IMG/VR virus record: IMGVR_UViG_3300045988_163304
Location: 64,001-128,000 of that record
Source of the DNA: a virus
DNA length: 64,000 nt
Strand: one strand, 5' to 3'
The position numbers and the translations under genes were made by a program. Below the pieces are notes generated by a model. That model searched no databases. It was not told the origin of the DNA and worked only from the letters and a program-made list of their open reading frames with translations. This document shows positions 1-64,000 of this stretch, piece by piece (position 1 is the stretch's first letter; each line of letters begins with the position of its first letter).

Positions 1-100
1 TATGTTTGATAAAACAGGATTACTTGGATATAAGGATTCGCCAATCGATGATGGTAAAGATATTTTCTTGAAATTATTTAAAGAAAGGATTATAATATAA
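1..100 (+). CDS. 3' end (or complete 33-codon ORF) of an upstream gene; frame from ATG at 2-4, TAA at 98-100
   Basis: Open frame ending TAA that overlaps the next ATG (TAATG). Confidence 0.3.
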   Translation, partial: MFDKTGLLGYKDSPIDDGKDIFLKLFKERIII

Positions 101-276
101 TGAGTGAATTGCATTGGAATAAATATAATGCGGCTGCAGATTTAGATCCATTCCCAGATATAAGATATCAATGTCCATTATGTTATAAAAGTTTTAAAGA
201 AGAATATGATAAATGTCCCAACTGCGGAAAAGCAATAAAAGGAGAATTACACTATGAAAGGTATCGTTTGGGGTAA
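100..276 (+). CDS. small zinc-ribbon protein with two CxxC pairs (CPLC...CPNC)
   Basis: ATG 100-102, TAA 274-276; four Cys in CxxC-x16-CxxC spacing. Confidence 0.45.
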   Translation: MSELHWNKYNAAADLDPFPDIRYQCPLCYKSFKEEYDKCPNCGKAIKGELHYERYRLG

Positions 277-565
277 TCGTTGGATTTCAGCAGTAAATAA
301 ATTAGATTAGATAGCACTAAAATACGAATATCTCCATATTAGCCCTATTCAAATAATTAAAACTAAAAATGAATATACAATTACTTATGAAAATGGAGAT
401 AATTGGCGAGCTATACGAGGTAATACTAATAGTCGAGGATATAAATGTAATATTTCTTATATTGATCGTGAAATTGCTGATGATATTGTTGATACTATTA
501 TTAAACCTTGTACCACTGATTTTCCTTATCATGGGTTTGAGTATTATTATCCAGAAAAGGACTGA
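254..565 (+). CDS. hypothetical protein with one in-frame TAG at 308-310
   Basis: ATG overlaps the end of the previous gene; 103 codons; TGA stop. Confidence 0.4.
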
Positions 566-637
566 TATAAATAATAAACTTAATAAAAAAATTAAAATAT
601 ATAGGTAGTGATTTAATGAAAGGAGGGTGACTATTCT

Positions 638-2383
638 ATGGAATACCGCCTAAGAGCACCCGAGTTCCCGATATATACACCGGTAGAACAAGTGCTAGTA
701 AATCGTGGAATACCCTACGATTAGATTAATCATTATTTAAACACTACTGATAATGACATTTTAGACCCTCGGTTAATACCGCACTTGGATGAAGGTGCTA
801 AAATGCTTATTAAACATATTTCACAAAATGACAAAGTTCTGATATAGGTAGATAGTGATTGTGATGGATATACGTCTGCCGCATTACTTATGAATTATCT
901 ATATTGTCTATTTCCCAGTTTTGTGAATAATAACATTTCTTATCGTGTCCATATGGGAAAACAGCACGGTATCATTCCAGATACAATTCCAGAAGACGTT
1001 AAATTAGTAATAGCTCCAGATTCAAGCTCAAATGACTATGAAGCTCATGAATATTTAAATCTAAGTGGAGTTGACGTGCTGGTAATAGACCACCATGAAG
1101 CTGATCACATTTCTAAATATGCTTGTGTAATTAATAATTAGTTATGTGATTATCCTACTAAATCATTATCTGGTGTAGCGATGGTCTGGAAATTTTGTTG
1201 CTACATTGATATGTTATTAAAAACTAACCATGCGTAGAAGTTTTTAGATTTAGTAGCTCTTGGATTGGTGGCCGACATGATGGATGTGCGAGATTTTGAA
1301 ACAAGAAGATTAATAGATAAAGGACTTCAACAAATCCGCAATCCTTACTTCAGAGGTGTGATTGATAAAGACCAATTTCATTTTACAAATGAGATTACAC
1401 CTATTGGAGTAGCTTTTTATATTGCTCCATTAATTAACGCGACAACTCGCGTCGGAACGCAAGAAGAAAAGCTCATGCTATTCGAATCAATGCTTGATTT
1501 TCGGGGATACGAACTTGTCCCATCAACAAAACGTGGATGTAAAGGTCAAGCAGAAACGAGAGTAGAACAAGCTTGTCGAAATTGTACCAATATTAAAAGT
1601 AGGCAAACCAAAATTCGAGACAATAGCTTGGAAAAAATTGAATAGATAATCGTAAATCAAAACTTATTGAGTAATAAAATCTTAATCGTTCAATTAGATG
1701 ATTTGATTACTGACCGCAACCTAACTGGATTAATAGCAAATCAATTAATGAGTAAATATCAAAGACCTGTTTTAATCTTAAATAGAATTGAAAATGAAGA
1801 TGGTACAATAACTTGGGAAGGGTCTGGTAGAGGATACGACAAATCTCGATTGAAAGATTTTAGAGGATTTTTAGAAAATAATAAATATGTTATGTACGCC
1901 GAAGGCCATGCAAATGCATTTGGTGTTGGTATTAAAGATGAAGATATTAGCGCATTTATTGTATCTACAAATTCTGCTCTAGACGGTTTTGATTTCACCC
2001 CAATCTATAATGTAGATTTTATCTACAAATCAGATGAGCTGACTCCTGATAAAGTTATTGATATTGCAGGAATGAAAAGCTTATGGGGCCAAGGAGTAGA
2101 AGAAGCTGAAATTGCAGTAGAAGGTATTAAAGTTCATAAAGACAATATACGTATTCTATCGCCAGATAAAAATCCTACTCTAAAGATAATGTTGCCGAAT
2201 GGCATCAATTTTATGAAGTTTAGGTCGTCTGAAGAGGAATATGATAAACTATATTCCGAATTAGGTTATGTGACAATTAATATCGTTGGTGAATGCGAAC
2301 GAAATATTTGGAATAATAAAATTAGTCCTCAAGTTATGATTAAAGATTACGAAATTGTAGATAGGGCAAATTATTATTTTTAA
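638..2383 (+). CDS. RecJ-like DHH/DHHA1 single-strand DNA exonuclease; five in-frame TAGs at 722, 845, 1139, 1235 and 1646
   Basis: RBS AAAGGAGGG then ATG 638. DHH motifs VDSDCDGYTSAALL and DHHEAD, RecJ-like LSGVAMV and LDLVALGLVAD, and DHHA1 GHANAFGV. The three ORF-track fragments share one frame and are joined only by TAG. Confidence 0.8.
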
Positions 2384-2436
2384 TAATTGACACTTATGAC
2401 TAATAGACCAAAAACCTATTAGGAGGAATTACAATT

Positions 2437-3267
2437 ATGAAAAATACTATTTTGAATAAATGGCTGATTGCATTAAGCTGTGTATTAATTATTGGATGCA
2501 GCATTAAAACTGTTGAAGCATCAGTCATTACTCGAAATGCACTTTCGGAAGCTTACATCCCTTCTGAAATGTCTTCTGTGGTAGATCTTACTACTACGAT
2601 TGAGTATAAACAAATTAGAAATATATCTAAAACAGAAGATACACAAGAATTAAGAACACTAATCCAAGAGTGTAAAACATTAAAAGAATCCGCTGAACAA
2701 ATGCTAGTATTGGCTGATAATTTAGGATATACCGATAAACATCCAGTAGTTAAAACAACGACTGCTGAAATTGAACAATTAAATAAATTGATTACAATTT
2801 ATGAAAATCGGTTAGAACAAAAACGTTGGGAAATTCGAATTGAGAAATACCCAACTGCTTCTAGTATTTGGTTATATTTAAGCGATCAAGGATATAGCGA
2901 TGAAATATGTGCCGGTATCCTTGGTAATATAATGGCTGAGGTTGGTGGACATACTTTAGATATTGAACATACTACCAATACCCATCCAGGATATTATGGT
3001 ATATGCCAATGGAGTTTAAAATATAGTAATACTAAAGGTATGAATTTATCTGAACAATGTCAATATTTAGTTGAAACTATTGAAAATGAATTTAATTCAT
3101 TTGGTAGTGAATATAAATCAGGATTTGATTATGATGATTTTATTGAAATGACTGATATTGAAGAAATTGCATTAGCATTTGCTAAATGTTATGAACGCTG
3201 TGGATCAGGTTCTTATGATGTGAGACAATCAAATGCTTTAATCGCTTTTGAATATTTTGCATCTTAA
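2437..3267 (+). CDS. secreted lipoprotein (lipobox LIIGC) with a coiled-coil region and a C-terminal phage-tail-lysozyme-like domain
   Basis: RBS AGGAGG; signal peptide plus Cys lipobox; C-terminal segment CAGILGNIMAEVGG...GYYGICQWS resembles the AGILGN/GxGQW phage tail lysozyme family. Confidence 0.55.
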   Translation: MKNTILNKWLIALSCVLIIGCSIKTVEASVITRNALSEAYIPSEMSSVVDLTTTIEYKQIRNISKTEDTQELRTLIQECKTLKESAEQMLVLADNLGYTDKHPVVKTTTAEIEQLNKLITIYENRLEQKRWEIRIEKYPTASSIWLYLSDQGYSDEICAGILGNIMAEVGGHTLDIEHTTNTHPGYYGICQWSLKYSNTKGMNLSEQCQYLVETIENEFNSFGSEYKSGFDYDDFIEMTDIEEIALAFAKCYERCGSGSYDVRQSNALIAFEYFAS

Positions 3268-3330
3268 TTATATATGGTTATATGGAGAGGTATTTCTCCC
3301 TATAACCCTTATTTTCATTTATGGAGATAA

Positions 3331-3535
3331 TATGACAAAATTTAAATCAGCTTGGGATATTGCTCAAGACTTACATAATTTACTATATAATACAGAAAAA
3401 TCTGGTAATGAGATATACAATGAAGTATTTGAAATTAGTAAAATTTTCGCAGAGACATTCCTTACAACGCCAGAAGATTTCGCTCGGTCGTTTATGGCTC
3501 TGAGAACCGAAATCCAAAATGAAAAAGTGATTTAA
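3331..3535 (+). CDS. hypothetical small protein
   Basis: ATG preceded by GGAGA; 68 codons. Confidence 0.4.
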
Positions 3536-3563: not shown

Positions 3564-4760
3564 ATGATTTTAACAAATAAACAAGAACAAGGATTAAAAA
3601 TAGCAGTAGAACGATATAAAAATAAAGAACGATATACAGTAATAGCAGGTTATGCTGGAAGTGGTAAATCAACTCTAATTAAATTTATTATCTCTGCCTT
3701 AGGAGTAAATCCAGAAGAAGAAGTTTGTTATGTGGCATTTACTGGTAAAGCAGCCACAGTTCTCTAGACTAAAGGTTGCCCGAATGCGACTACTGCTCAT
3801 TAGTTATTATATAAAGCGCGGATTACGCCTAATGGAACATATAAATTTTTCCCAAGACCAAGAGAAGAAATAGTACATTATAAAGTAATTGTAGTAGATG
3901 AAGTTTCAATGCTCCCTAAAGCTATGTGGGAATTACTTCTATCTCACGGTATTTATATTTTGGCAACCGGCGACCCAGGTCAATTACCACCAATAGTCGA
4001 TGAAGATAATAATCATGTTCTCGACAATCCACACGTTTTCCTTGATGAAATTATGCGTCAAGCGCAAAATAGTGAAATTATTAGATTTTCAATGTGGATT
4101 CGTGATAACAAACCAATCTCTTCATATAAGGGCACTGAGGAACAGGTTTTAATTCGATTTAAATGGGATGAAATGCTTCCTTAGATGTATAATTGGGCAG
4201 ATCAAATTATTTGCTCAACAAATGAAAAACGAAATGATATTAATCGTATAGTCCGAACTCAAAAAGGATATGACCCAGATCGACCTTGCATTGGAGATAA
4301 ATTAATTGGATTACATAACCAATGGGATTTTATGTCTTCTAGTCATACATGGGCATTAACTAATGGGACTATTGGGATATTAGAAAATTTCTACGTTGAA
4401 GATATACGATTTCCCTATTGGATTTATAAAAATCCTGTACCATTTATGTATGCTCAATTAAGGCTTGACGATGATGATACATTTTGTGGAGTCCCTATTG
4501 ATTATAATCAATTATTAACTGGCAAAAGAACATTTGAAGGAAAACAAATTTATCAAATTAAAAAGAATAAAAATTGTCCTGACCCTCCATTTGATTTTTC
4601 ATATGCCTATGCCATTACTTGCTGGAAAGCGCAAGGTAGTGAATATAATAAAGTATTAGGGTTTGAAGAAGCTCCACCTTATGATAGAGAAACTCATAAA
4701 AAGTATTTATATACCTTAGCAACAAGAGCTAAAGAGAGGTTGGTATTAATTAGAAAATGA
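3564..4760 (+). CDS. Dda/RecD-like SF1 helicase; three in-frame TAGs at 3768, 3801 and 4182
   Basis: Walker A GYAGSGKST, GDPGQLPP, DEVSM, and motifs V/VI CWKAQGSEY and LYTLATRAKERL. The three ORF fragments share one frame. Confidence 0.8.
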
Positions 4761-5387: not shown

Positions 5388-5424
5388 ATTATTATAAATA
5401 AAATAAATGAGAAAGAGGTGGATT

Positions 5425-8400
5425 ATGCGACCATATTTTGGCGTACACAACCATACTCACTATTCAAATCTGCGTTTATTAGATTCTATTAATAGACCAG
5501 AAGAGTTGATTAAAACAGCAGAAAAATTAGGATTAAGTGGTATAGCAATTACTGACCACGAATGTTTATCTGCTCATATGGAAGTTAATCAATTTGCAAA
5601 AGATTTTTTAAAAGAGCATCCTGATTTTACTATTGCGTTAGGTAATGAAATCTATTTAACTGATACAAGAGATTGTGGTCAAAAGTATTATCATTTTATT
5701 CTATTGGCAAAAGATGAAATCGGTTATAAAGCATTAAAAGAATTGAGTTCAACTGCTTGGATTAATTCTTATACTGATAGAAAAATGGAACGTGTGCCAA
5801 CACTAAAATCTGAATTAAAAAATGTAATGGCACAATATAAAGGACATGTTATCGCAACAACAGCTTGCATTGGTGGTGAATTAGGTTCTAATTTATATCC
5901 AATGTATGAGGCTGAAGTAGTAGGCGATATACAAACTAAAAGCATTTATTATAATAATGTTGTTAGATTCATTGAATTTTGTATAAATGTTTTTGGTAAA
6001 GACGATTTTTATTTAGAGTGTGCTCCGTCTACCATGAAAGACCAACTTGTAGTAAATCAAAAGATTTATCAAGTAGCAAAAGCATATGATTTAAAAATGG
6101 TAGTTGGAACCGATGCTCATTATTTAACAAAGAAAGATAGACCAATTCATAAGGCTTATTTAAATTCTAAAGATGGCGAACGTGAAGTTGATTCATTCTA
6201 TGAATTCGCTTATGTAATGGATAGTGATGAAGTAGAAGAATTAATGCTACCATATATGGATACTTGGGATAAAAATAAAACTCCTCAAGAAATTATGAAT
6301 TGGATTTTTGATAATACATTAGAAATTCAAAAGAAAATAAAATTTTATTCTCTGGAACGTAAACAACAAATTCCAAGAGTAGAAGTAATTGATTATAAAA
6401 AAGGATTCATTCCAGCAGATTGGCTTGAGAAATATCCTGTTATTTGTTCACTGATTAATAGTGATGATATTCAAGAACGATATTGGGTGAATGAATGTAT
6501 TAAAGCACTGCAAGAAAAACAATTATATGAGAATGAAACATATATATCTCGACTTGAAACTGAAGCTAATGTAATTAAAAATATTGGCGAAAAACTTGAA
6601 GATTGTTTGTTTGCTTATTTTAATGCATTTAAACATTATATTGATTTGTTCTGGGAGTGCGGAAGTATTGTTGGCCCAGGTCGTGGCTCAGCAACTGGTT
6701 TTTTATCTAATTATTTATTGGGAATTACTCAGCTAGATCCAATTCGTTGGGGATTACCATATTGGCGTTTCTTGAACTTAGAGCGCGCAGAGTTGCCTGA
6801 TATTGATATCGATCTTGCGCCAAGCAAACGCCCGGCAATTTTTAGTGCTATTCGTAAAGAGCGGGGAACATTAGGTTTAATTCAAGTTGCAACGTTTGGA
6901 ACTGAAGGAACAAAGCAAGCAATTTTAACTGCTTGTCGTGGTTATAGAAGTGATGATTATCCCAATGGTATTGATGTAGATGAAGCTCAATTTATGTCTT
7001 CATTAATTCCGCAGGAACGTGGATTTTTATGGCCGATGAAAGATGTAGTAAATGGTAATCCTGATAAAGATAGAAAACCAGTAACTACATTTATCCAAAA
7101 GGTAAATCAATATCCTGGTTTATTGGATATTATTGTATACATTGAGGGCATCGTTAATAAACGTTCTTCTCATGCTTCTGGTGTTATTCTATATGGAGAA
7201 GACCCATTTGAAACCGCGTCATTTATGAAAACCCCTAGTGGTGATTTAATTACTTGTTGGGATTTGCATAAGGCTGAAGCCGCCGGAGATACTAAATATG
7301 ACTTCCTGGTAACAGAAGCATGTGATAAAATTATTCAATGTTATAATTTATTAAAAGAGGATAATCAAATTCCTGATATTGGTCTACGTGATTTTTATAA
7401 TAAATATCTTCATCCAGAAGTAATAGATACTTCTGATAAGCGCATTTGGGAACATTTGGCCGCGGGAGATATTCTTGACGTATTCCAATTTTCTACTGGT
7501 GTAGGTTTAGCTATTGCTAAAAAACTGAAACCAAAAGATCCTATGGAAATGACAGCCGCAAATGCTATGATGCGTCTAATGAGTGAAAAGGGCAAAGAAA
7601 GTCAGCAAGATAGATATTATCGAATTCAAAAAGCTGGTATTCAAGTTTTTGATAAAGAAATGAAAGATAATCATTTGCCAGACGAAATGATTGAAAAAAT
7701 GCATAAGCATTGTGATAGATATTATGGATGTTGTCCACTTCAAGAGCAAATGATGGAAATCCTTATGGATGTCGCTGGATTTACATTAGGCGAAGCAAAT
7801 AGCGCGCGTAAAGTTGTTGCTAAAAAACAAATGGCAAAAATTCCTCAATTAAAAGAGCAAGTATTTAGTAAATTTACTAATGAACATAATGCTGAATATT
7901 TTTGGGAAAATGCAATCGCTCCTCAATTGGGATATGCATTTAGTTTAAATCATTCTCTTCCTTACTCATTTGTTGCAATTCAAATGATTTATTTGGCAAT
8001 TAATTTCAATCCTATTTATTGGAATTGTGCTTGTTTGATTGTAAATAGTGGAGCATTAGAAAATGAACCAGAAGAAATGAGCGATGAAGATTATGATTAT
8101 TCTGGCGAAGAATATTGTGGTGTTTCTCCAGAAGATGTAATGGAGAATAAACCAAAAAATAAAAAAGTGGCTAGTACTGATTATGGTAAAATTGCTAAGG
8201 CGATTGGAGATATTCAGTCTGCTGGTATTAAAGTCAGTTTAGCTGATATTAATAAAGCTAAATTTGGATTCGCGCCCGACGTTGAAAACAATCAAATTCT
8301 ATTTGGTTTAAAAGGATTATTGAATGTTGGCGATGATTTGATTAATAATATTATTGCAAATCGTCCATATATATCAGTGAAAGATTTTTATTATCGCATT

Positions 8401-9378
8401 AAGCCAAGTAAGCAAGCAATGATTTCATTGATTAAAAGCGGTGCATTTGATGAAATGATGGACCGTAAAGATTTAATGATTTGGTATATTTGGGAAACAT
8501 GTGATAAAAAATCTCGTTTAACATTACAAAATTTAGCAACTTTAATTCGTTATAATTTATTACCAGAAGATAAAGATGAATATATAATTGCAAGACGAGT
8601 TTACGAATTTAATAGATATTTAAAAGCCGTTTGTAAAGATGGTAATGTGTATAAAGTCGATGAACGAGCAATTAATTTCCTAACTGAAATTGGTTGTGAC
8701 GATTTAATTGGTAGTTGTTACCTCTTAGATTCTAAAGCTTGGGATAAAGTATATCAAAAATATATGGATACATTCCGGGCTTGGATTACAGAGAATAAAG
8801 ATGTTATTTTAAATAAACTAAATAATAAAATATTTAAAGATGATTGGGATAAATATGCATCTAAATCTATTTCTGCGTGGGAGATGGAAGTTTTGTGTTT
8901 CTATTATCATGAGCATGAGTTAGCCCATGTAAATAATAGTAAATATGGATTTGTCGATTTCTTCCATCTACCAGAAGAACCAATTGTTGATAAAGTTTTT
9001 TCTAAGGGTAATAAAACGATTACTATGTATAAATTACACAAGATTTGTGGAACTTGTATTGCTAAAAATAAAACTAAATCAACAGTTACATTACTCACTA
9101 CTTCTGGAGTTGTTGAAGTTAAATTTAGAAAAGAATATTTCTCATTATTTGATAAACAAATTTCAGAAAAACAAGCTGATGGTACTAAAAAAGTAATGGA
9201 AAAAAGCTGGTTTAATCGTGGTAATATGATTGCTGTTCAAGGTATTCGTCAAGGTGATAATTTTATAGCGAAAAAATATGCCAGCTCTGGTGGTCATCAA
9301 TTATATAAAATTGATAAAATTTTAGATAATGGTGATATTGAATTAAAAGATGAAAGATACAATGGAGGATCTAATTAA
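5425..9378 (+). CDS. dnaE: DNA polymerase III alpha subunit (DnaE-type) with an N-terminal PHP domain; no internal TAG
   Basis: PHP motif GVHNHTHYS; palm active site GSATGFLSNYLLGITQLDP...PDIDIDLA; RBS AGAGGTGG. Confidence 0.85.
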   Translation: MRPYFGVHNHTHYSNLRLLDSINRPEELIKTAEKLGLSGIAITDHECLSAHMEVNQFAKDFLKEHPDFTIALGNEIYLTDTRDCGQKYYHFILLAKDEIGYKALKELSSTAWINSYTDRKMERVPTLKSELKNVMAQYKGHVIATTACIGGELGSNLYPMYEAEVVGDIQTKSIYYNNVVRFIEFCINVFGKDDFYLECAPSTMKDQLVVNQKIYQVAKAYDLKMVVGTDAHYLTKKDRPIHKAYLNSKDGEREVDSFYEFAYVMDSDEVEELMLPYMDTWDKNKTPQEIMNWIFDNTLEIQKKIKFYSLERKQQIPRVEVIDYKKGFIPADWLEKYPVICSLINSDDIQERYWVNECIKALQEKQLYENETYISRLETEANVIKNIGEKLEDCLFAYFNAFKHYIDLFWECGSIVGPGRGSATGFLSNYLLGITQLDPIRWGLPYWRFLNLERAELPDIDIDLAPSKRPAIFSAIRKERGTLGLIQVATFGTEGTKQAILTACRGYRSDDYPNGIDVDEAQFMSSLIPQERGFLWPMKDVVNGNPDKDRKPVTTFIQKVNQYPGLLDIIVYIEGIVNKRSSHASGVILYGEDPFETASFMKTPSGDLITCWDLHKAEAAGDTKYDFLVTEACDKIIQCYNLLKEDNQIPDIGLRDFYNKYLHPEVIDTSDKRIWEHLAAGDILDVFQFSTGVGLAIAKKLKPKDPMEMTAANAMMRLMSEKGKESQQDRYYRIQKAGIQVFDKEMKDNHLPDEMIEKMHKHCDRYYGCCPLQEQMMEILMDVAGFTLGEANSARKVVAKKQMAKIPQLKEQVFSKFTNEHNAEYFWENAIAPQLGYAFSLNHSLPYSFVAIQMIYLAINFNPIYWNCACLIVNSGALENEPEEMSDEDYDYSGEEYCGVSPEDVMENKPKNKKVASTDYGKIAKAIGDIQSAGIKVSLADINKAKFGFAPDVENNQILFGLKGLLNVGDDLINNIIANRPYISVKDFYYRIKPSKQAMISLIKSGAFDEMMDRKDLMIWYIWETCDKKSRLTLQNLATLIRYNLLPEDKDEYIIARRVYEFNRYLKAVCKDGNVYKVDERAINFLTEIGCDDLIGSCYLLDSKAWDKVYQKYMDTFRAWITENKDVILNKLNNKIFKDDWDKYASKSISAWEMEVLCFYYHEHELAHVNNSKYGFVDFFHLPEEPIVDKVFSKGNKTITMYKLHKICGTCIAKNKTKSTVTLLTTSGVVEVKFRKEYFSLFDKQISEKQADGTKKVMEKSWFNRGNMIAVQGIRQGDNFIAKKYASSGGHQLYKIDKILDNGDIELKDERYNGGSN

Positions 9379-13360: not shown

Positions 13361-13392
13361 ATCGTTTATTTTGTAGTTTATAGCCATTTGAT

Positions 13393-13635
13393 ATGGTTCA
13401 ACAAATTTATGCAGTAGATAATAATGGCAATATCATAGATACATTTAGTTGTACGTTCGACGATATGATTGAAGCTGTTCCATCCTATTGCAAAAATAAT
13501 AATATTAATGTAATTCATTTGTTAGGTATTACTGATTACACATTTGAAATGAAACAAAGAATGATGGAATTTTGTAAAACTAATTACGCATATGAAAATT
13601 TAAATCTAATTATTGATTGTGGAGAAGAAAAATAA
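13393..13635 (+). CDS. hypothetical protein
   Basis: ORF of 80 codons. Confidence 0.4.
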   Translation: MVQQIYAVDNNGNIIDTFSCTFDDMIEAVPSYCKNNNINVIHLLGITDYTFEMKQRMMEFCKTNYAYENLNLIIDCGEEK

Positions 13636-54352: not shown

Positions 54353-57300
54353 TTAAATAGTCTTTCGACTAGCATATTGACTTGCTTCGTTCTCCATCAT
54401 TTCAAATGCTTCCATAATTTCATTACTATCAGTCACATTCGGGAAATCAGCATTAATAGAAATTTGTTGCATAAACTCTTGTGCAATTCTATCAATACCA
54501 AGAGAAGAAGGAGTTAAATTAGATAAATAATTTACAATAGTCTAAACATTTAACCCTATACTTTGTAAAATACTTGAAACATCTAAACTATCAATTAATG
54601 CAGTATCAATTGTTAATTCATTATTCTGCATCTATTCATCTATCTATTTACTCATATCTAATCTATCAAATATATCATAAGTTAAGGGGAAAGATTGTTC
54701 TGTAACATAATCAGTATTACTAAAACTTCTAGAATTATGTTGCGTGCTAATAATATTATTATCTGTCGTGGTTAACTGAGAATTTGTCTTTTGATTATAT
54801 TTACTATAATCAATATTATCCATACCAGATAATAATGCAACCATTTTATTAAGACTCGCTACAAGAGCCTCATTTCTATCAATAGCACTATTAATTTTTT
54901 TAGTATAAATATCTTCCCATCTACCAGCCGCTTCAATAACATCTTTAAAGGAATTGGTAGCGTTTTTAACTATGCCATCCATATCAGCTAATGCTTTATT
55001 AGAATCACCAGTAATCTTAATAGACCAACCAGAAGCTTCGCTAGCAAAATCGCCTTTAATACCAGCGGTTTGATTTATTTCATCCTATTTTTTACTTAAA
55101 TCATCTAATAATTTCATTGAATCATTTAATACAGTATCATGATTATCCCAGAAACGTTTAAACATTTCATCTAATGATTCATATCCACCCTTAATTGCTA
55201 AATTAGTTTTTTCAAACGTGTCTTTAATATTATCGGTATTAACCTAATAATATGAAGTAAATTTCGCTGTTGCGTCTTGGCTATTTCCAAATAACTTTTT
55301 GTATTCCCCTTCAAGATATTGCATCTTGTTTAAATACCAATCATTTAAACTAGCAATTTGCGCTTCGGCCTCTTCTTTTGTTAATTCGCCATCAGCTAAA
55401 CCTAATTCTATTTCTTTAAGTTTTTCTTTATAATCAGCCTATACTTGAAGAATATTACTTTCAAGAGTTTTTAGGTATTCTTCATTTGCTTTTTGATAAG
55501 CATTTAATTTATCTTCATATTCCTATTCAGCTTGAGCAATTTTATCTTCATCCGCGCTATATACATATCCCCAATTACCATTATTATCGCGAGTTAAACG
55601 AACAGTTTCATTAGAATTTTGAACATCTTCTAATTTCTATCTTGCTAATTCTAATTCATATTTAGATTGCAAAATTTTCAAATCATATTCACTAATTTGA
55701 GAACCATCTTTTAATTTTTTATTTAACTCATCCTGTAATTTATTCAATGCTTGTTTATGCGCGATAATATCAGTATCTTCTATAGAACCTTCAATCTAAC
55801 GTCTTAATTTATTTAATTCATAAGTTTTATCAGTATCACTTAAATATTGTTCATTAATTTCATTAGCCTATTCAATAGCTTCTTGTAATGCATCAATGGT
55901 GCCTTGAATAGGAGCAATACCTTTTTCAAATTCTTGGATAATGTTATCCATTTCTTCATCAAAGATATCTTTTGCTCTCTATAGAGCTTCTTGCCAACTA
56001 TCTAAGAAACTTTCTTCTACACCATTAATTTTATCATCAATTTCTTGTAAGGTTTTATCCCATTTCTTAATAGCTTGTTCATCGCCGTTAGCTGCTACTT
56101 TATCACGCTCAGCTTGAGCATCAGCGCGCATCTATTTCAATGCTTCTAATTCTTTTTTAGTCCCAGCTAAATTATTAATACTGTTATTCATTAATGAACG
56201 ATTTAAATTGCGAATTACTATTTTAGACTGTTCTCCCAACTACATTCCTAGTAATGATGTAATATCTTTAACACCTTCTAAAATATTTTGATAATGATCA
56301 AATAATTCAATTTGATGCTCGATATCTTCACTGAATTGATTGAAACTATCTAATACTTTTTCTTGAATTGTATTACGCATTTCAAGTAATTCTTGATTAC
56401 TAGATAATAATTCTGAACGCCAGTCTCTTAATTGCTCAATTTCTTTAGCAGTAAATCCTTTAGCTTTTAAATCAGCTTCAGACATTCCCTCTAATTCTTC
56501 TATTGAATCAATACCATGATTATTTAATAATTCCATTAATCCTTTTTGATAAGTAGTAATTTTATCAAGAGTATTCTAAGTTTTATCACCAATTAAAACT
56601 ATAGCCTCAGCCGCTGAATAAGCTTCATCTTCAATTTTACTTAATAAATAATCAAGATATTCTAATTCATCATCTTTAACAGCAATTTTAATTTCAATTT
56701 TATATTGAGTTTTTTCAAAAATTACATCAGCTAATTCAGTCTTTAAATCATATAATTTTTCTAATTGCTCTTGGCGCAAATTATTAGTTTCTTCATACTA
56801 TTCTAAAGCTTTAATAAAATCATCATAAGCATCTTCAGCGGCATCATCAGCATCTTCATTTTTACCAATAGACGAATTATATTTATCAATCTGGCGCTTC
56901 ATAATTTCATCATAATTAGTAATAGCACCAGTTTCATCAAATTCAGCGCCATAAGATGCAATTAAAGCTCTATCTTCATCCCAATATTTATTAATTTCAT
57001 CAAGATATTGATTCTATAAATCAATCATTTCATCATATTTTTCAATTTCTTGATCCATTAATTCTAATTTAGAAGTGCCAAACGCCCGCTCTTTAGCTTT
57101 CGCTAAATGCTCCATTACCTCTTCTAAATCTTCAATTTTTTGCTTAATTACATGATAACGCTCAATTTCATCTTTATATTCTTTTGGGGGAGGAGGAGTA
57201 TATGAACTTCCACCACCGCCTCCATTACCACCATCGCCACCATTTCCTCCAATGGTTCCAGAAGATTTTGTGCCTCCAGTGACTTCACCACCCATTTCTA

Positions 57301-60300
57301 AGCCACCACCAGTTACAGCCTTAACTGCTGCGGGGTATTCAATTACGTCTTCTCCATCTAAAGATTTAATAAAAACTCCGCCTGGAACATGATGGGTACC
57401 ATCAACGGTATCAGTTTCATTAGTGGCTACTAATGTATCAAAATGTTTTTTAGTCACTTGAGGTTCGACAGGATTTAACTCTAAATTAAATCCCATTTTA
57501 GCGAATTCTTTTTGTGCTTGTTCAGATGTCCATCCACTAGCTGCAATTATTTTATTACAAGCATCAATAAATCCAGCATCATTAACTTCTGCTCCGACTT
57601 CAATCGGATTGTTTTCTATGTAATTAGAAATATAATCAAAAGCATTTTGAACGTCTGATTCAACTGTTCCGGCCGCAGCACCTGCAGATTCTTCTAATTG
57701 GGCCATTGCTGAACGGGCTTTAGTATTATTAACATCTAAAACAATTTGACGCTATGCTTCCACTCTAAATTGTTGAACAGCTTTAGTATCGCCCTTCATC
57801 ATTTTAGGAATTAGTGGACCAGATTTTCTAATAAAATCTTTATTATGAGCAAGCATCTAATCAAATGTATCTTGACTTACTCCAGCTAAAGAAGCAAAAC
57901 TGTCAGAATTAGCATCTAAAAAATCCCCGAAAGATTCATATTCGGCTTCTGTTAAATCTTTATTTTTTTCTAATTTTTCAATATATTTATTTAATTCTTT
58001 ACTATTATCATTCCAAGCATCCTAAATATCTTTAATAGTACCAATATTAAGACCAGTTAATTTTCGTAATTCATTTACAGCTTCAGCGTCTCCTTCAACT
58101 GCTTTCTTAATTAAATCATAATGTTCAATAATATTATCACTATCACTAATCCATTCTTCGAAACCTTCTTTAGTCATGTCAAACATAGAAGCATATTCTT
58201 CAGAATTCTATTTTAACATATCTGACATAGCTTGAGCTTTTTCTTTTAACTAATCTTGATAATTATTATAAGCCGCTTGATAATCTTCTGTATTATCAAA
58301 AGAATCTTCGTTTGGAGTTCCCTGTTGATTTATTTGTTCAAATTCATTTACAGTTGATTGATTTTTATCCCAAGTTTCTTTTGCCTTAGAAGCATTTTCC
58401 CAAGTTGTTTTACTATCAGCTTCTATTCCTACATAATCATCAATATTAGCCACAGTATCTTCAGAGGCTAATTTATTTTCTAGCCAAGCTCGTAACTCTG
58501 AAACAGAAATATTTTTAGTCTCTTTCTAATCTTCATCTGTATATACTTCAATAGTTTTATCATTCTATAATTTAGATAAATTACCCCAAAAATTATTATC
58601 TTTATAAGTATATCCTCTCTCTTTTAAAAACTCTTGAATATTTTCATTTGAATTATTTAAAACATTAAAAGCAGTAGCAGACTAGTCGGTATAATCTGTA
58701 GCATTAGAATTACGGACTGCATCTTCAGCCATTTTATAAGCAATATCAGAGACATATTCATCACTAACTCCTGCCTCTTTTAAATCTTCTAAAATCCCTT
58801 CAGAAACCATTTTATTATACATATCATTAGTTTCTGTGTCAGCAATTCGTTGTGCCTATACAGTCAATTCTTTAATAGCATCTTGTAATTCAGTATTATT
58901 ATCAATTAAATCAATAACACTCTAATCTAAACCTAAATCTTTTAATGTATCAGAATCAATTTCTAAGTTTGGATTACGTAATTTAGCATTAATAATAGTG
59001 TCTAGATCTTTAGAAGTAATCTATTCTACATCATTATCATAATGGGTCTATCCGTGTTTAGTATAATCAGAAACAATTTCTTTTTTGCTCTAATCATATT
59101 CATATTTATCTTTAAATTTCTATTGAGCAGCTTTTGCTGATAATAAATTAGAACGTTCTTCATCCATTGAAGTACGCATAGTCTCCGCGCCAGTGTCTGT
59201 AATATACTTACGCCCCTGAGCATCAATATCCCAGTCCTATCCTTTTATTAAACCATATTTTTCAATTAAATCATCAACTTCATCATTTAACTCATTAACA
59301 GCATCTCGCCATTCTATAGTTCCATAAGTGAGATTATCAATATTTTTACGTTTATCATTTAACCCAGATAAAGTACTATTTAATGTATTTAATCTACTAT
59401 TTACATCATCTAAAGCAGTTTTAGTTTCTTCTAAATTTTTATTATTCTATTCAGCGTTTTCAGCTGCTGCTCCAGTAGCATTGTCATATATCGCCCAAGC
59501 CGCTACCAAAGCTCCTAAAGCTACAATTAAAGGCCAAATAGTAGCTAAAACTGGAACAATATTTAACCATAGACCTTTTAGAGCTGTAGAAAAAGCATTA
59601 GTTGTTACCGCCGCCTTTCCTGCTACAATAGCTTCAGCTTGCAATGCTGTAGTTTCAGTAACTACTCCTCCCGCTGCTAAAACTGCTTGGATAGCATTCT
59701 TTTTAAAAGCATCATTTAATTTTTTACTAGCTAATATATTATCTATTTTCTTTTTTTGATTCTGGGTTAATACTATTGTATTAGCCCCTATTGCTACATT
59801 TTCTAAAGAAAGTGTAAGAAATTGTTTCTAGGACTATTGTTGTAAAAAAGCATTAGCAGTACCTAATCCTCGTAAAACACTAGACACCCCAGGAACAATC
59901 ATAGAAATACTAAATAAAACAGATGTAAATTTTTCCCATCCAGAAATATCAGGATCAGATAATGTTTGCATCATAGAATTAAATGATTGTAATGCCATTG
60001 CAGCAGAACCACAAGCAGAAGCCAATGATATTATACTCTAAGTGAAAGGTATTTTATGAATTGGTTTAAAATTAATAACTGCTTGATTGAGTCCTTCTTG
60101 TGCTTCTTTTGCTTCTTTAGTAGCCTATCCCCACTATTTTAATGCTTTACTATGCGCCTAAATATCACCTTTAGCCTATTCCATTGATTTACTTGTTGAA
60201 CGACCCATTTGTTCTAAAGCATTAGCCGCATTTTTTCCTTCAACAGTAGTATTTTTTAGAACTTCTGCTAACTGCTTAAAAGCCTAACTTACTTCTTTTG

Positions 60301-62650
60301 GCTTTCCTCCATCTAATGCACTTTCAATAGCTTCTAAAGCATTTTGAAAATCTTTTGAAGATTTTGTGACTTCATCTACTGGGCCAATAAGCATATCAAT
60401 AGAAGTTCGAACCGTTTCAAAATCAATTTCACCATTTAATTTAGTATACTAAGTCCCTAATTTTTTAAGTCCTTCAATTGTTAAAGAGTATAAATCATTT
60501 CCTGATAATAAAGTTTCATTTGTTTCATGCCCAACTTCAATAAAAGTTTTATAAGTATTTGTTAATTTTTCAACTGTTTGTGCTAATTGAGACGCTGCCT
60601 GTTCCTGAATATCTAATTTATCATTCTAGAAAAAAGCTAAATCATTTCTAGCAGCGACTAAATCTGCCTAATTATTTTCAGATGGATTATTACGATATAA
60701 CTACTAAGCTTTATCTTTATTAGCTTTTAACTTCTGTAAATAACTAGTACCATAATCATAAATTTGATTAGGAGCATTTAAATCAATAGGATTAGTATCT
60801 TTATTTAATTGTTCTCGTAATTTAATTAATTTTACTGTTTCCTACTATTGTTTTTCAATAAATTGAATTTCATTTTCATAATATCTTTTTTCACTAATAG
60901 ATAAATTTTCAGATACGGTTGCTAATTTATTTTTTACTCCTAATAATTCCTAAGAATTTTTTAATTCCTATTCTTGAGCTGGAGTAAAATTAGTTCTTGT
61001 CTCTAACTATAATTTAATATTATCAGAAGTTTCTTTAGATATTTTAGCATAAACTTTATCTGCTCCACCTACTAAAATTTGAATATTATTTATTGCATTA
61101 TCTAAAGCTGGCTAAATTTTAGAGCTTAATGTCTAACCAATTAATGATAAAAATCCTAATAATAAAGGTTTAATTCCACCAATTTTATCAATAAAAGAAT
61201 CAACCCCATCAACCATATCAGATAAGAAATCTGTAAATTTAATAAAAAATTTATCATCAATTAAATCAGTATATAAAGATTCAAAAGAAGCTTTTAAACG
61301 TTTATTAGCAGCTTCCCAAGACTCTTCATAAATTTTCTATTGTTCAGTTAATGTTCCAGTAGCATTACGAGCAGTTTCGAGATTTTCTTTCATAAAATCC
61401 CAATTATCCATTAATGCCATTAATTGCGTATATTGACGAACACCAGCAACGGTTTGAGCCAATGCTACTTTAGCATCTTTAGAAATTAATGGATTACCTT
61501 CAGCATCAAATGAATTCCACTTTTCACCTAAATCACTAAGGATATCATCCATCTCTCGCAATCCGCCATCTGCTGTTTTAATAGAAACACCAACAGTTTC
61601 AAGAGCTTGAGAATATTTGCCTAATGTAGTACCATCATCAAGAGTTTTACCTAATTCTAAATCTTGAATACGAGCAAATAATGTTTTGAATGCAGTACCA
61701 ACTACATCAGCAGATTGACGAGTCGTTGCGGTTACAGTCGCTAAAGCTGAAGTAGCATATTCATAACTTAAACCTACTGTATTAGACACAGCTGCAAATT
61801 TTTCTAATCCAGCCGCAATTTCATCTGTGCTGGAAGCTGTTGCTGCACCTAATGCAGTCATAACATCAGCGTAATATTCTAATGATTGTGAGCCATCATA
61901 GAAGTTATTCCAAACAGCAGTCAATTGGTCTGATATTTTATCAGCACTTTCACCAGCGGCATTAGCCATTTTAATCGTAACAGCAGTTCTATCTTCTACT
62001 TCTTTATCTGATAAACCCTGTTGATAGTAAATCAAAGAAGCATCAGTATAATTTAATGTAGAAGTGCTTAATGCCTTTGCTGCTTTATTTGCTCTATCAG
62101 CAAATTTATCCATATAGTCAATATTATGACCAGTAACAATTCGGATATCATTTAATGAACTATTTAAATTCTAAGCGTAATGATAAGCTCCTTGCAAAGC
62201 CCCCATTACACCATGAATCATACTTGAAGAAATTTGCCATTTAACTGTATTTTTAACAGTAGTTAAAAAATCTTGTAAACGAGCATTTAATGTAATCATT
62301 GGCTAATCAGCCGCCGCTATTGATTGAGCTAATTTTATAAATGCTTGTTGTCCAGTTGTTCCCGCTTGAAGTAAACTGGTAGATAATTCAGTCACATTAG
62401 TTTTTGATTTAGCTAAACTAGCATTTAATTTACTTAAATCATAATTACCAGTTTTCTAATTATATGCTTCATTTAAATGAATAGCTAGCTCTTTAGCCGC
62501 AGTAGAAGCTGCTTTCATTTGACTGGGATCAATACCTAAATCAGTACTATATGCTACTTTAGTTAATAACTACTGCAATTCCTAAATCTGCTATTTCGCT
62601 TGAGTAGTATTCGCAGTAAAATCTAATGCAACATTTAATTGTTTTGCCAT
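54353..62650 (-). CDS. tail tape measure protein, ~2765 aa, dozens of in-frame TAGs
   Basis: All nine track ORFs here sit in frame 2 (54644 ... 61337). TP901-type TMP core (61337-62113 fragment), TM helices at 59447-59644 and a Gly-rich linker. RBS AAAGGAG; TAA at 54353. Confidence 0.75.
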
Positions 62651-62689
62651 AAACGGGACTCCTTTCTCTCATAATATAAACAAAAAAAA

Positions 62690-62728
62690 TGGGTGTGAGA
62701 AATAATCTTCTCACACCCATACACTTGA
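62690..62728 (-). terminator. hairpin plus T-run between the 62766-63290 gene and the TMP start (possible attenuator)
   Basis: gggtgtgagaa / ttctcacaccc with T8 on the minus strand. Confidence 0.45.
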
Positions 62729-62765
62729 TTATTCCTATTTAATTTTAAAAAATTAAATAGTTTAA

Positions 62766-63290
62766 TTATCCCAACTTGGTCAAAACATCTTTTAGCAATC
62801 CTAATGTTTCAGGATTCTGAATGTCATTAGTTAATTGTTCCATATCAAATGTTGTATCTTTATAATCCGTAGAAATAATATCTAAAATACCCGCCGCAGA
62901 ATTTTTATACTCATAAATTGAATGAATAGTTTCTGCCACCCAACTTTTAATTTGTGCATATTCTCCTGGATTAATTTCTCCAAATACCTTAGCAGAAAAA
63001 CCAGAACCTACTACTAAATCATATAATTTCTTTGGGTCTTCTTTTTGTTTATCAGTAAAACTTACATTTGTATATGCCATAATCATTTTTAAAATAGTAT
63101 GAAGATATACACGAGCAGGGTTATAATAACCGTTTTTATCAATGGAATCATTAATGATTTCTGAAATAAGATTTAACTTATCTCCAATAGGAAGATAATC
63201 TTTGACTTCAATAATCTAATCTCCCCATTCAAAGGTTGATACTTCTGTATTTTTATTTAAATTTAACTTTGAAAATGATACTTTTGCCAT
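62766..63290 (-). CDS. tail protein upstream of the TMP (assembly chaperone or tube protein); one TAG
   Basis: RBS AAAAGGAGG; 175 codons. Confidence 0.45.
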
Positions 63291-63319
63291 TTCAAAATCC
63301 TCCTTTTACACTTATTTAT

Positions 63320-63348
63320 ATTATACTAAAAATTTAGTTTATTGTCAA
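63320..63348 (-). promoter_or_regulatory. perfect-consensus sigma70 promoter on the minus strand (TTGACA, 17 nt, TATAAT) driving the tail operon
   Basis: -35 at 63348-63343 and -10 at 63325-63320 read on the minus strand. Confidence 0.55.
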
Positions 63349-63352
63349 TTTT

Positions 63353-64000
63353 TATTTCGATATTTTTAAAATATTTAATAATTTATCAACAGCTTTTTCT
63401 GCCGTCTCTTCCATAGCTGCTTCAGTTTCAAATTTTGCTTTATTTAAAAACAATTTAGAAATCTTTTCTTGATATGATGCTTTATCAATTAATCCTCCAG
63501 AAATAATATCTTTTATAATTTTTAATTGCTAATAAATTGTATTATAATCATATAAATCTGCACGATTTGCTTTAATACTAGTGTTTGTAAAAGGATTATC
63601 ACCACCCTATGAAGCAATAATATTGTCATAGGCTAATGCAGTACCAAAAACATCATTTTTAATCTATTGATCATCAATCTATTTTTCTAATTCTATCTAA
63701 TGAGAAATAGCAATATCCAATGCTTCAAAAATATGGCCTTGATTAAAGAACTAATACTAACGAGGATTTTTTTTCTATTTTAATCCAGAGTTACGATTTC
63801 CATATTCTTGCATAATTGATTTTCTTACAATATATCCGTATTTTCCTAAAGAAGTAAAATAATCATTTTTTTCATTTTTCGCTGGAACATATTTATTAAA
63901 ATATTTTGTCATTAATTCGCTGTATTTTGCATTAATTGCATCATTATTCTATTTTAATAAAGTAGGATTTAATTGTAATGCCATTTTACCAAATTTCACA
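63353..64000 (-). CDS. tail protein (tube or major tail candidate), partial at the window edge; about nine TAGs
   Basis: Explicit translation gives a continuous protein ending ...AVDKLLNILKISK-TAA; the frame is open to the window edge. Confidence 0.4.

What the first reader, a model, noticed from the sequence alone, without database searches (positions are those of the whole stretch)
1..64000. Genome-wide TAG (amber) stop-codon reassignment
At least 12 independent genes with recognisable homology need in-frame TAG to be translated: RecJ-like (5), Dda helicase (3), NrdD (1), NrdG (1), Gmk (1), the tape measure (dozens), and the fibers. In each case the TAG falls inside a conserved domain with the reading frame preserved on both sides. 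For minus-strand genes, every ORF-track fragment boundary is plus-strand cta. TAA and TGA still end genes (for example TGA at 12294, TAA at 54353, TAA at 26540). This is the signature of an alternative code (TAG -> amino acid, code-15-like), as in crAss-like and Lak phages.
Basis: seen in the sequence. Interest (0 to 1): 0.95.

Follow-up and report, generated by a model that had tools for sequence, protein, structure and literature searches.

The report
Gut phage reads TAG as glutamine
This 64-kb stretch of a roughly 198-kb human-gut phage uses the stop codon TAG as a glutamine codon, and near-identical genomes carry a matching suppressor tRNA; this is a real but already well-described kind of phage recoding.

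Summary
With TAG as a stop the window is fragmented: ORFs of at least 300 codons cover 18.5%. With TAG as sense they cover 79.7%, and 39 tightly packed genes cover 96%. There are 241 in-frame TAGs in 29 genes, and every gene ends in TAA (29) or TGA (10). Pfam domains of RecJ, Dda, Gmk, NrdD and NrdG run across the TAGs.

TAG means Gln. In relatives about 95% identical, TAG exchanges mainly with CAA and CAG, and 97 TAG sites aligned to standard-code relatives fit the Gln substitution profile best.

The window has no tRNA. A 198-kb genome of the same roughly 95% ANI lineage carries a tRNA(CUA) (Rfam 55 bits) behind a perfect sigma-70-type promoter, inside a 16-tRNA array.

TAG use is uneven: 0 of 45 Gln codons in the DnaE-type polymerase, 11.5% in the replication block, and 37% in the tail block.

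The phage is neither crAss-like nor Lak. It is a large Firmicute-type siphovirus-like phage. Its family also includes standard-code and TGA-recoded members. Borges et al. and the phAss-1 paper already describe all of this, so it is a new member of a known kind.

The parts
254..565 (+). Hypothetical gene, 103 aa, 1 in-frame TAG
   Evidence: Code-15 gene set
638..2383 (+). RecJ-like DHH exonuclease, 581 aa, 5 in-frame TAGs (codons 29, 70, 168, 200, 336)
   Evidence: Pfam DHH 66-209 and RecJ_OB 460-570 span the TAGs. Codons 70 and 168 are Q in 11/12 and 12/12 standard-code relatives.
2437..3267 (+). Phage_lysozyme2-domain protein with signal peptide/lipobox-like N-terminus, 0 TAG of 11 Gln codons
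   Evidence: Pfam; codon counts
3564..4760 (+). Dda-like SF1 helicase, 398 aa, 3 in-frame TAGs
   Evidence: Pfam AAA_30 14-188 and UvrD_C_2 347-396. Same position as the Dda-like helicase in Enterococcus phage VRE9_3.
4757..5362 (+). Hypothetical gene, 201 aa, 5 in-frame TAGs; a variable locus that does not align in some ~96% identical genomes
5407..9378 (+). DnaE-type DNA polymerase III alpha, 1,323 aa, TAG-free (0 of 45 Gln codons, P = 1.6e-7)
   Evidence: Pfam PHP, DNA_pol3_alpha, finger and HHH_6. 39% identical over 99% of its length to SPbeta YorL and Enterococcus phage polymerases. Codon test.
9378..9974 (+). Guanylate kinase, 198 aa, 1 in-frame TAG
   Evidence: Pfam Guanylate_kin 4-160 spans codon 71
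10047..12296 (+). Anaerobic ribonucleotide reductase NrdD, 749 aa, 1 in-frame TAG (codon 219), TGA stop
   Evidence: Pfam NRDD, E = 1e-145. PDB alignments: Q opposite the TAG in 1h78 (T4) and 9d3x, M in 8p23. Q in 13/13 standard-code relatives.
12293..12787 (+). NrdG activase (radical SAM), 164 aa, 1 in-frame TAG inside the CxxxCxxC-X-N motif
   Evidence: Pfam Fer4_12 15-153. H at this position in PflA and in 13/14 relatives.
12815..14952 (+). Block of five TAG-free genes, including dUTPase (13886-14443)
15031..15525 (+). Hypothetical membrane/coiled-coil protein, 164 aa, 3 TAGs
15573..18892 (.). Six small genes on both strands with 0-2 TAGs each (15573-16094-, 16100-16522-, 16580-17257- TAG-free, 17414-17854-, 18104-18517+, 18518-18892+)
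   Evidence: phrog_16490 for 16580-17257
18941..21049 (-). Fibre-like protein, 702 aa, 5 TAGs; shares a C-terminal domain with 22523-23512
   Evidence: sequence comparison by eye; no PHROG family
21219..22478 (+). Hypothetical gene, 419 aa, 3 TAGs
22523..23512 (-). Fibre-like protein, 329 aa, 6 TAGs of 7 Gln-type codons
23638..26520 (-). Three genes: 202 aa (3 TAGs), 644 aa (1 TAG of 20 Gln codons), 65 aa (0 TAG)
26540..34702 (-). Giant tail/host-recognition protein, 2,720 aa, 14 TAGs, TAA stop
34844..37449 (-). Two structural genes, 543 aa and 311 aa, 1 TAG each
37567..41381 (-). 1,157-aa protein (20 TAGs) and 113-aa protein (1 TAG)
41399..44005 (-). Tail protein, 868 aa, 13 TAGs
   Evidence: phrog_1887 'tail protein' and phrog_32343
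44002..51300 (-). Giant tail protein, 2,432 aa, 60 TAGs (52% of its Gln-type codons, P = 4e-7 for excess), TGA stop
51323..54241 (-). Tail protein, 972 aa, 18 TAGs
54353..62650 (-). Tape measure protein, 2,765 aa, 59 TAGs, TAA stop
   Evidence: The X-free N-terminal domain matches annotated tape measure proteins of Enterococcus, Bacillus and Lactococcus phages and of phAss-1. TAG<->CAA/CAG exchanges with ~95% identical genomes.
62766..63984 (-). Two genes upstream of the TMP: 174 aa (1 TAG) and 210 aa (9 TAGs of 15 Gln-type codons)

Best explanation
The window is part of a roughly 198-kb tailed phage from the human gut that translates its genes with genetic code 15: TAG encodes glutamine, and only TAA and TGA terminate.

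What is shown:
- TAG is a sense codon in 29 of 39 genes.
- It behaves as a synonym of CAA and CAG.
- Genomes of the same roughly 95% ANI lineage encode a tRNA with anticodon CUA. It lies behind a consensus host-type promoter, in a 16-tRNA array about 45-50 kb from the left end of the window.

What is inferred:
- The window's own genome carries this tRNA.
- The host Gln-charging machinery charges it with Gln.
- After infection it outcompetes host release factor 1 at TAG.

TAG use is graded:
- essentially none in the small early genes with host-type promoters;
- none in the replication core (polymerase, primase, DnaB, Sak4);
- none in the major capsid and major tail genes;
- 11.5% of Gln codons across the replication block;
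- 34-52% in the large, low-copy tail proteins, and TAGs are also present in terminase, portal and the lysis cassette.

The likely consequence is that TAG-rich late genes cannot be made until the suppressor has accumulated. This would act as a translational timer and/or dosage throttle, and it makes those genes unreadable to standard-code ribosomes. This last step is inferred.
For: Code.
- ORF coverage is 0.185 under code 11, 0.797 under code 15 and 0.186 under code 4.
- There are 39 genes covering 96% of the window, 241 in-frame TAGs, and no gene needing TAG as its stop.
- Pfam domains are continuous across the TAGs.

Amino acid.
- At 97 TAG sites aligned to standard-code relatives, Q is the top majority residue. 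Empirical-profile log-likelihoods are Q -281.9, K -302.7 and E -303.1.
- In ~95% identical genomes, window TAG is replaced by CAA at 15 and CAG at 9 of 30 variable sites. Relatives' TAGs stand opposite window CAA (21) or CAG (10) at 44 sites.
- The NrdD TAG aligns to Q in T4 NrdD and 9d3x.
- Adding TAG brings Gln frequency in the tail block to 43 per 1,000 codons, against 36 per 1,000 in the replication block.

Decoder.
- tRNA(CUA) lies at L422 7164-7237 on ENA k99_336181, a 198,261-bp contig (ARAGORN).
- Rfam RF00005 scores it at 55 bits, E = 6.6e-10.
- A 12/12 TTGACA-17-TATAAT promoter lies at 7052-7080.
- That contig is 93-96% identical to the lineage loci, and those are 94-97% identical to the window.
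- Relatives L416, L418 and L420 carry tRNA(CUA) in the same array. Their UGGGG acceptor and anticodon stem match the family's tRNA-Gln(UUG).

Gradient.
- Fisher P = 5e-12 for the replication block against the tail block; polymerase 0 of 45 Gln codons.
- TAG-free capsid and major tail genes, helicase, primase and Sak4 in the flanks.
- Early ORFs use CAG (60) and CAA (25) with about 0 TAG, and 36 of 39 stop at TAA or TGA.
- The base after TAG is A in 46% of cases, against 34% after CAA (P = 1e-4).

The phenomenon and the model are described by Borges et al. (10.1101/2021.08.26.457843).
Against: - The window itself has no tRNA. The suppressor was seen in a ~95% ANI genome, not in the window's own contig.
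- This lineage's tRNA(CUA) has a CCGGC acceptor stem, unlike the UGGGG Gln-type stem of its relatives. Its charging with Gln therefore rests on the codon-substitution evidence, not on tRNA identity elements.
- No RF2, glutaminyl-tRNA synthetase or amidotransferase gene was seen in the roughly 75% of the genome that was read.
- The regulatory reading is not clean. RecJ, Dda and other replication-block genes do contain TAG. The late major capsid and major tail genes contain none. The suppressor has a host-type promoter that should fire from the start of infection.
Confidence: 0.9

Rival explanations
1. TAG encodes an amino acid other than Gln (Lys, Glu, Tyr, Leu, Ser, Trp or pyrrolysine).
For: At 56-70% identity most TAG sites align to non-Gln residues (D, A, E, N, K). 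ARAGORN labels every CUA tRNA 'Pyl'. The lineage's tRNA(CUA) lacks the UGGGG acceptor stem of tRNA-Gln.
Against: The empirical likelihood favours Q by about 21 log units over K and E. In close relatives CAA and CAG account for 24 of the 39 distinct replacement codons tallied at 30 variable window-TAG sites, and for 31 of 44 in the reverse direction. The single-mutation neighbours AAG, GAG, TAT, TTG and TGG are rare. The tRNA is an ordinary cloverleaf with a GGTTCGAATCC T-arm, scoring 55 bits on the general tRNA model. From general knowledge, tRNA-Pyl is atypical, and 241 Pyl codons would be unprecedented.
Confidence: 0.04
2. TAG has a dual meaning: it is partly read through and still terminates some genes, depending on context or time.
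For: A host RF1 should compete with the suppressor. The +4 base after TAG is biased towards A, which suggests that suppression efficiency matters. Three of 39 early-region ORFs have TAG as their first stop.
Against: No window gene needs TAG as a terminator. TAGs are uniform along genes and never lie within 12 codons of the stop. Genes are tightly packed using only TAA and TGA. Of the three early ORFs ending in TAG, two have non-ATG starts and one is the N-terminal piece of a 226-aa protein that continues across the TAG.
Confidence: 0.05
3. The host itself uses code 15 and the phage simply mirrors it.
For: Contigs of this family were binned into MAGs labelled Mollicutes and Candidatus Onthovivens, which are poorly known low-GC lineages.
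Against: The phage carries its own tRNA(CUA). Its early genes and replication core avoid TAG, as expected if they must be read by a standard-code host. Sister clades of the same family use the standard code or recode TGA. Borges et al. predict standard-code Firmicutes or Bacteroidetes hosts for such phages. From general knowledge, no bacterium with TAG = Gln is known.
Confidence: 0.03
4. The genome uses the standard code, and the TAGs are pseudogene lesions, sequencing errors or boundaries of separate small genes.
For: None beyond the fragmented appearance under table 11.
Against: Only TAG interrupts frames, 241 times, and never TAA or TGA. Frames and Pfam domains continue across the TAGs. In the polymerase-flanking loci of the closest relatives, TAG is retained at 19 of 28 aligned window TAG sites. 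The same pattern occurs in dozens of independent assemblies from different samples.
Confidence: 0.005

Closest known systems
Alternatively coded (code 15) gut phage clades of Borges et al. (bioRxiv 10.1101/2021.08.26.457843): the large-genome clades Jade, Sapphire and Agate
   Same: These are low-GC gut phages of about 150-210 kb with TAG aligned to Gln. Structural and lysis genes are recoded, and recoding of replication genes varies. Clades mix codes 11, 15 and 4. Suppressor tRNAs are present in some genomes. TAG and TGA are depleted as stops. All of these features are seen here.
   Different: Membership of a named clade could not be tested, because no terminase tree or reference sequences were available. 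Here the late major capsid and major tail genes are TAG-free. The suppressor sits behind a consensus host-type promoter. No RF2 was found.
Phage phAss-1 / proposed Phassvirus (OQ749652; PMC10607447), NCBI 'Caudoviricetes code 15 clade'
   Same: It is a human-gut phage that reads TAG as Gln and has a tRNA array including tRNA-Sup(CTA). The predicted host is a Bacillota. Its tape measure N-terminal domain is homologous (37% identity), and the overall layout is the same.
   Different: phAss-1 is 136 kb, against about 198 kb here. Protein identity is below 40%, there is no DNA similarity, and its polymerase was not among the best matches. It is a distant relative, not the same genus.
Enterococcus phages VRE9_3, EF1 and H1 (~140 kb) and SPbeta-type Bacillus phages (standard code)
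   Same: They have a DnaE-type polymerase 39% identical over its full length. The replication module is syntenic: dUTPase, Gmk, Pol, Dda, RecJ, DnaB, Sak4. They carry NrdD/NrdG and a homologous tape measure domain.
   Different: They use the standard code, are cultured on known hosts, and have smaller genomes.
crAss-like phages with code 15 (validated by metaproteomics, PMC9523058) and Lak megaphages
   Same: They show the same reassignment (TAG to Gln), concentrated in late genes.
   Different: They are unrelated lineages on Bacteroidetes hosts. Lak genomes are about 560 kb. From general knowledge, crAss-like phages are podovirus-like and have no tape measure protein or DnaE-type polymerase.

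Membership tests
Genetic code 15 (TAG = Gln) recoded phage | In-frame TAG inside conserved genes, with the reading frame and domains continuous | tested here: met
   241 TAGs in 29 of 39 genes; Pfam domains span them
Genetic code 15 (TAG = Gln) recoded phage | TAG is not used as a terminator; TAA and TGA terminate | tested here: met
   Stops are TAA in 29 genes, TGA in 10 and TAG in none. TAGs are uniform along genes.
Genetic code 15 (TAG = Gln) recoded phage | TAG positions correspond to Gln in homologues | tested here: met
   Likelihood at 97 sites; CAA/CAG exchanges; NrdD in the PDB
Genetic code 15 (TAG = Gln) recoded phage | Phage-encoded suppressor tRNA with anticodon CUA | tested here: met
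   Not in the window. Present in a 198-kb genome of the same ~95% ANI lineage at L422 7164-7237, 55 bits.
Genetic code 15 (TAG = Gln) recoded phage | Gln actually incorporated at TAG (protein level) | not testable with these tools
   Needs proteomics, as done for crAss-like phages (PMC9523058)
Genetic code 15 (TAG = Gln) recoded phage | Accessory factors (RF2, aaRS); these occur in only some members | tested here: inconclusive
   None seen in the ~75% of the genome that was read. About 25-30% is unread.
crAss-like phages (Crassvirales) | crAss-type gene content and relatedness | tested here: not met
   Nearest relatives are Firmicute siphoviruses and phAss-1. The phage has a DnaE-type polymerase and a 2,765-aa tape measure protein.
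Lak megaphages | Genome above 500 kb | tested here: not met
   Complete genomes of the lineage are 197.6-198.3 kb. Lak genomes are 562 +/- 44 kb.
Phassvirus (phAss-1 genus) | Substantial nucleotide identity (the genus members share 83-86% with phAss-1) and genome synteny | tested here: not met
   No megablast match to any deposited phage. The TMP domain is only 37% identical.
Named Borges clades (Jade, Sapphire, Agate) | Placement in the large-terminase phylogeny | not tested
   No reference terminase sequences were available. Genome size and mixed codes are compatible.

The most novel reading that the evidence does not exclude
In this lineage TAG may work less as an early/late timer than as a dosage throttle and a barrier to standard-code translation.

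Three observations point this way:
- The suppressor tRNA sits behind a perfect host-type promoter and should be made from the first minutes.
- The most abundant late proteins (major capsid, major tail) and the replication core avoid TAG completely.
- Giant low-copy tail proteins, terminase, portal and lysis genes are loaded with it. The base after TAG is biased towards A, which points to competition with RF1.

A second unexcluded point is that the suppressor has a different acceptor stem from the Gln-type suppressors of its relatives. This suggests the decoder tRNA was replaced within one phage family while the meaning of the codon was kept.
Probability: 0.3. Interest if true: 0.55.

Novelty: new member of a known kind. 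Interest (0 to 1): 0.35.

Why it matters
In practical terms, any standard-code annotation of this phage is wrong. The GenBank record of its distant relative phAss-1 is fragmented in just this way. The window must be called with table 15.

Biologically, it adds a well-resolved case. One family of 130-200-kb gut phages holds standard-code, TAG-recoded and TGA-recoded members. TAG use is graded from early genes, through the replication core, to the low-copy tail genes. The suppressor tRNA can also be placed in the genome. A family like this could be used to test whether recoding acts as a lysis timer, a dosage control, or protection against translation by a standard-code host. The phenomenon itself is already established.

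Tried and rejected
1. Megablast of 25 kb of the window against deposited phages found no match.
2. Exact look-up of the polymerase protein found nothing on record.
3. tRNA searches were negative in the window and in about 370 family loci (about 6.5 Mb) around the polymerase, TMP, capsid, Sak4, early-region and topoisomerase genes. The array lies elsewhere in the genome.
4. ARAGORN with relaxed thresholds or introns gave only noise, 615 hits in all. One was a CUA 'tRNA' at window c26979-27045, inside the 2,720-aa gene. It was rejected because Rfam does not support it.
5. The GC-rich (40-55%) region next to the terminase was considered as an ncRNA or unusual tRNA array. It was rejected. There is no Rfam hit, and repeats show it is an array of small early genes, each with a consensus promoter, an RBS and a terminator.
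6. The spot in L378 syntenic with the tRNA(CUA) of L406 proved to be coding.
7. phAss-1's GenBank annotation could not be used for synteny because it was made with the standard code.
8. A pattern search for suppressor tRNAs across IMG/VR was considered and not run. About 14 specified bases would give thousands of unrelated hits.
9. PHROGs on ten late proteins named only one, as a tail protein. The 'fiber' labels therefore remain positional.
10. 'Standard-code' calls made from polymerase regions alone proved unsafe (L034 against L081). They were re-tested on structural regions of the same contigs.

Full report

Yes. The window is 29.5% GC. Counting stop-to-stop ORFs of at least 300 codons in six frames, coverage is 18.5% with the standard code, 18.6% if TGA is sense (code 4), and 79.7% if TAG is sense (code 15). 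The longest ORF doubles from 1,323 to 2,771 codons.

A greedy non-overlapping code-15 gene set has 39 genes covering 96.3% of the window. It contains 241 in-frame TAGs in 29 genes. All 39 genes end in TAA (29) or TGA (10).

Pfam domains run straight through the TAG positions, which were entered as X:
- DHH 66-209 and RecJ_OB
- AAA_30 14-188 and UvrD_C_2
- NRDD 118-744 (E = 1e-145)
- Fer4_12 15-153
- Guanylate_kin 4-160

TAGs are uniformly distributed along genes (KS P = 0.18), and none lies within 12 codons of the true stop. Nothing suggests that TAG also terminates.

**2. Which amino acid?**

Three independent lines point to Gln.

(a) Solved structures. The NrdD TAG aligns with Q in T4 NrdD (1h78) and in 9d3x, and with M in 8p23. 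It is Q in 13 of 13 standard-code relatives.

(b) Standard-code relatives. IMG/VR holds many relatives. 97 window TAG sites could be aligned to relatives that use the standard code. Q is the most frequent majority residue. Scored against the empirical substitution profile of each amino acid in the same alignments, Gln fits best: log-likelihood -281.9, against -302.7 for Lys and -303.1 for Glu.

(c) Close relatives. In genomes 94-97% identical to the window, window TAG is replaced by CAA at 15 and by CAG at 9 of 30 variable sites. Relatives' TAGs stand opposite window CAA (21) or CAG (10) at 44 sites. The other single-mutation neighbours of TAG are rare. CAA is two mutations from TAG, so this is synonymous drift and not mutational proximity.

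TAG makes up 29% of Gln-type codons: 241 TAG, 525 CAA and 54 CAG.

**3. How is it decoded?**

The window has no tRNA (ARAGORN; Rfam). I therefore walked along the 197.7-kb genomes of the same lineage. None of the roughly 370 loci around the polymerase, tape measure, capsid, Sak4, early-region and topoisomerase genes had a tRNA.

More divergent family members showed a tRNA array upstream of a DUF2828 gene. That array includes a tRNA(CUA) whose UGGGG acceptor and anticodon stem match the family's own tRNA-Gln(UUG). A further relative has a tRNA(CUA) next to a tmRNA.

On ENA contig k99_336181 (198,261 bp) the array was finally reached. This contig is 93-96% identical to the lineage loci. It carries 15 ARAGORN tRNAs, including tRNA(CUA) at L422 7164-7237, plus an intron-containing tRNA-Glu.

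The CUA tRNA scores 55 bits on Rfam's tRNA model, against a threshold of 29 (E = 6.6e-10). It has a mismatched U1-U72 pair, G73 and an encoded CCA. A 12/12 TTGACA-17-TATAAT promoter lies 84 nt upstream of it.

Its acceptor stem (CCGGC) differs from that of its relatives' suppressors. Its Gln identity therefore rests on section 2, not on the tRNA. No RF2 or synthetase gene was seen in the roughly 75% of the genome that was read.

**4. Distribution of TAG**

TAG use is strongly non-random:
- The DnaE-type polymerase has 0 TAG among 45 Gln codons (P = 1.6e-7).
- NrdD has 1 of 33.
- The replication block as a whole has 11.5%.
- The tail block has 37% (Fisher P = 5e-12), reaching 52% in the 2,432-aa tail protein.

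In the flanks of the ~95% identical genomes:
- Primase, DnaB and Sak4 are TAG-free.
- The terminase large subunit (10 TAGs) and portal (9) are recoded, as are the endolysin (3) and a holin-like protein (2).
- The probable major capsid and major tail proteins have none.

A roughly 19-kb region of small early genes follows. Each gene has a consensus host promoter, an RBS and a terminator. These genes use CAG and CAA with essentially no TAG, and 36 of 39 stop at TAA or TGA. They read the same under either code.

The base after TAG is A in 46% of cases, against 34% after CAA (P = 1e-4). From general knowledge, a 3' A favours amber suppression over RF1.

This fits the published model that recoding delays or limits translation of structural and lysis genes until the suppressor is active. 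Two features also fit a dosage-throttle reading: the TAG-free abundant late proteins, and the host-type promoter of the suppressor.

**5. What phage is this?**

It is neither crAss-like nor Lak.
- The polymerase is 39% identical end to end to YorL of SPbeta-type Bacillus phages and to ~140-kb Enterococcus phages.
- The replication module is syntenic with Enterococcus phage VRE9_3.
- After an unannotated 15-kb gut-metagenome phage fragment (MT835936, 40%), the tape measure domain is closest to phAss-1 (37%). phAss-1 is a 136-kb human-gut code-15 phage with a tRNA-Sup(CTA).
- Complete genomes of the lineage are 197.6-198.3 kb and come from human gut metagenomes.

Within the family:
- Among 80 tail-region relatives, 60 are TAG-recoded, 17 use the standard code and 3 are TGA-recoded.
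- A ~195-kb sister clade uses the standard code in both its replication and its structural regions.

MAG bins labelled Mollicutes, Clostridium and Candidatus Onthovivens give only weak host hints.

**6. Novelty**

Borges et al. already describe every element found here:
- TAG aligned to Gln in gut phages;
- large-genome clades that mix codes 11, 15 and 4;
- recoded structural and lysis genes;
- variable recoding of replication genes;
- suppressor tRNAs detected in only about 40% of TAG-recoded genomes.

Code 15 has been validated by metaproteomics in crAss-like phages (PMC9523058). NCBI taxonomy has a 'Caudoviricetes code 15 clade'.

This is therefore a correct finding of a known kind in an undescribed lineage. 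Confidence that TAG is sense is about 0.99. Confidence that it is Gln is about 0.93. Confidence that a phage tRNA(CUA) decodes it is about 0.85. Its regulatory role remains open.

Noticed in passing
L266 10,800-20,291; L273 1,600-20,000; L282 (IMG/VR contig 3300045988_160359, about 5.6-24 kb): A ~19-kb region next to the terminase has 40-55% GC, against ~30% for the rest of the phage. It is an array of at least 20 small early genes, each with a near-consensus TTGACA-N17-TGnTATAAT promoter, an AGGAGG RBS and a stem-loop terminator. It is conserved in all seven close genomes. The reason for the GC jump is unexplained.
   Followed up: partly
L080, L100, L118 (TGA); L051-L096 and L213-L251 subsets (standard code): Three codes occur in the same phage family, defined by 60-72% identity in the TMP domain: 60 TAG-recoded, 17 standard-code and 3 TGA-recoded loci. 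A ~195-kb sister clade uses the standard code in both its replication and structural regions.
   Followed up: partly
L034 versus L081 (contig IMGVR_UViG_3300013426_000017): In the same 175-kb genome the polymerase region shows no need for TAG readthrough (coverage 0.85 against 0.86), but the tail region is heavily recoded (0.37 against 0.98). This relative has late-only recoding.
   Followed up: no
L422 6055-6248: A tRNA-Glu(UUC) is interrupted by a 121-nt intron in the anticodon loop. Rfam finds it (43 bits) and ARAGORN finds it only with intron mode.
   Followed up: partly
L406 480-831 and 3509-3582: A smaller relative encodes a tmRNA (tag ANEYAIAA) a few kb from its Gln-type tRNA(CUA).
   Followed up: no
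L414 10001-14189 (also L411, L415): There is a gene pair encoding a DUF2828/DUF7788 protein (509 aa) and an 829-aa protein with major-vault-protein 'shoulder' and Vault_3 hits, just downstream of the tRNA array. The DUF2828 protein has more than 7,000 database relatives at E < 1e-100.
   Followed up: no
L422 10001-12713; L420 2702-6485: Radical-SAM-domain genes are embedded within the tRNA array. The one in the window's lineage itself contains in-frame TAGs.
   Followed up: no
window 18941-21049 and 22523-23512: Two fibre-like proteins share a conserved C-terminal domain of about 120 aa (...AVWNDYAE...TFGF.IGETE.AKTPIAV.GRVL...VNGR.WI..). TAGs in one align to K or M in the other (sequences).
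   Followed up: no
window 4757-5362: A 201-aa gene with 5 TAGs occupies the slot of thymidine kinase in Enterococcus phage VRE9_3. It has no Pfam match and does not align in some ~96% identical genomes, so it is a variable locus.
   Followed up: no
L378 6872-8284: A 470-aa TAG-free protein has an N-terminus resembling a tRNA-binding (EMAP/CsaA-type) domain. By eye it is probably an RNA ligase-like enzyme, possibly for tRNA repair. It was not scanned against Pfam.
   Followed up: no
window 22474-22523: A weak Rfam hit (MIR6274, 33 bits, E = 0.011) lies in the gap between two convergent genes. It is most likely a bidirectional terminator hairpin.
   Followed up: no
L124, L125; protein cluster of P0126: Contigs of this phage family are deposited inside bacterial MAGs labelled 'uncultured Mollicutes', 'Clostridium sp.' and 'Candidatus Onthovivens sp.'. 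This is probably a binning artefact for low-GC contigs, but it may hint at the host.
   Followed up: partly
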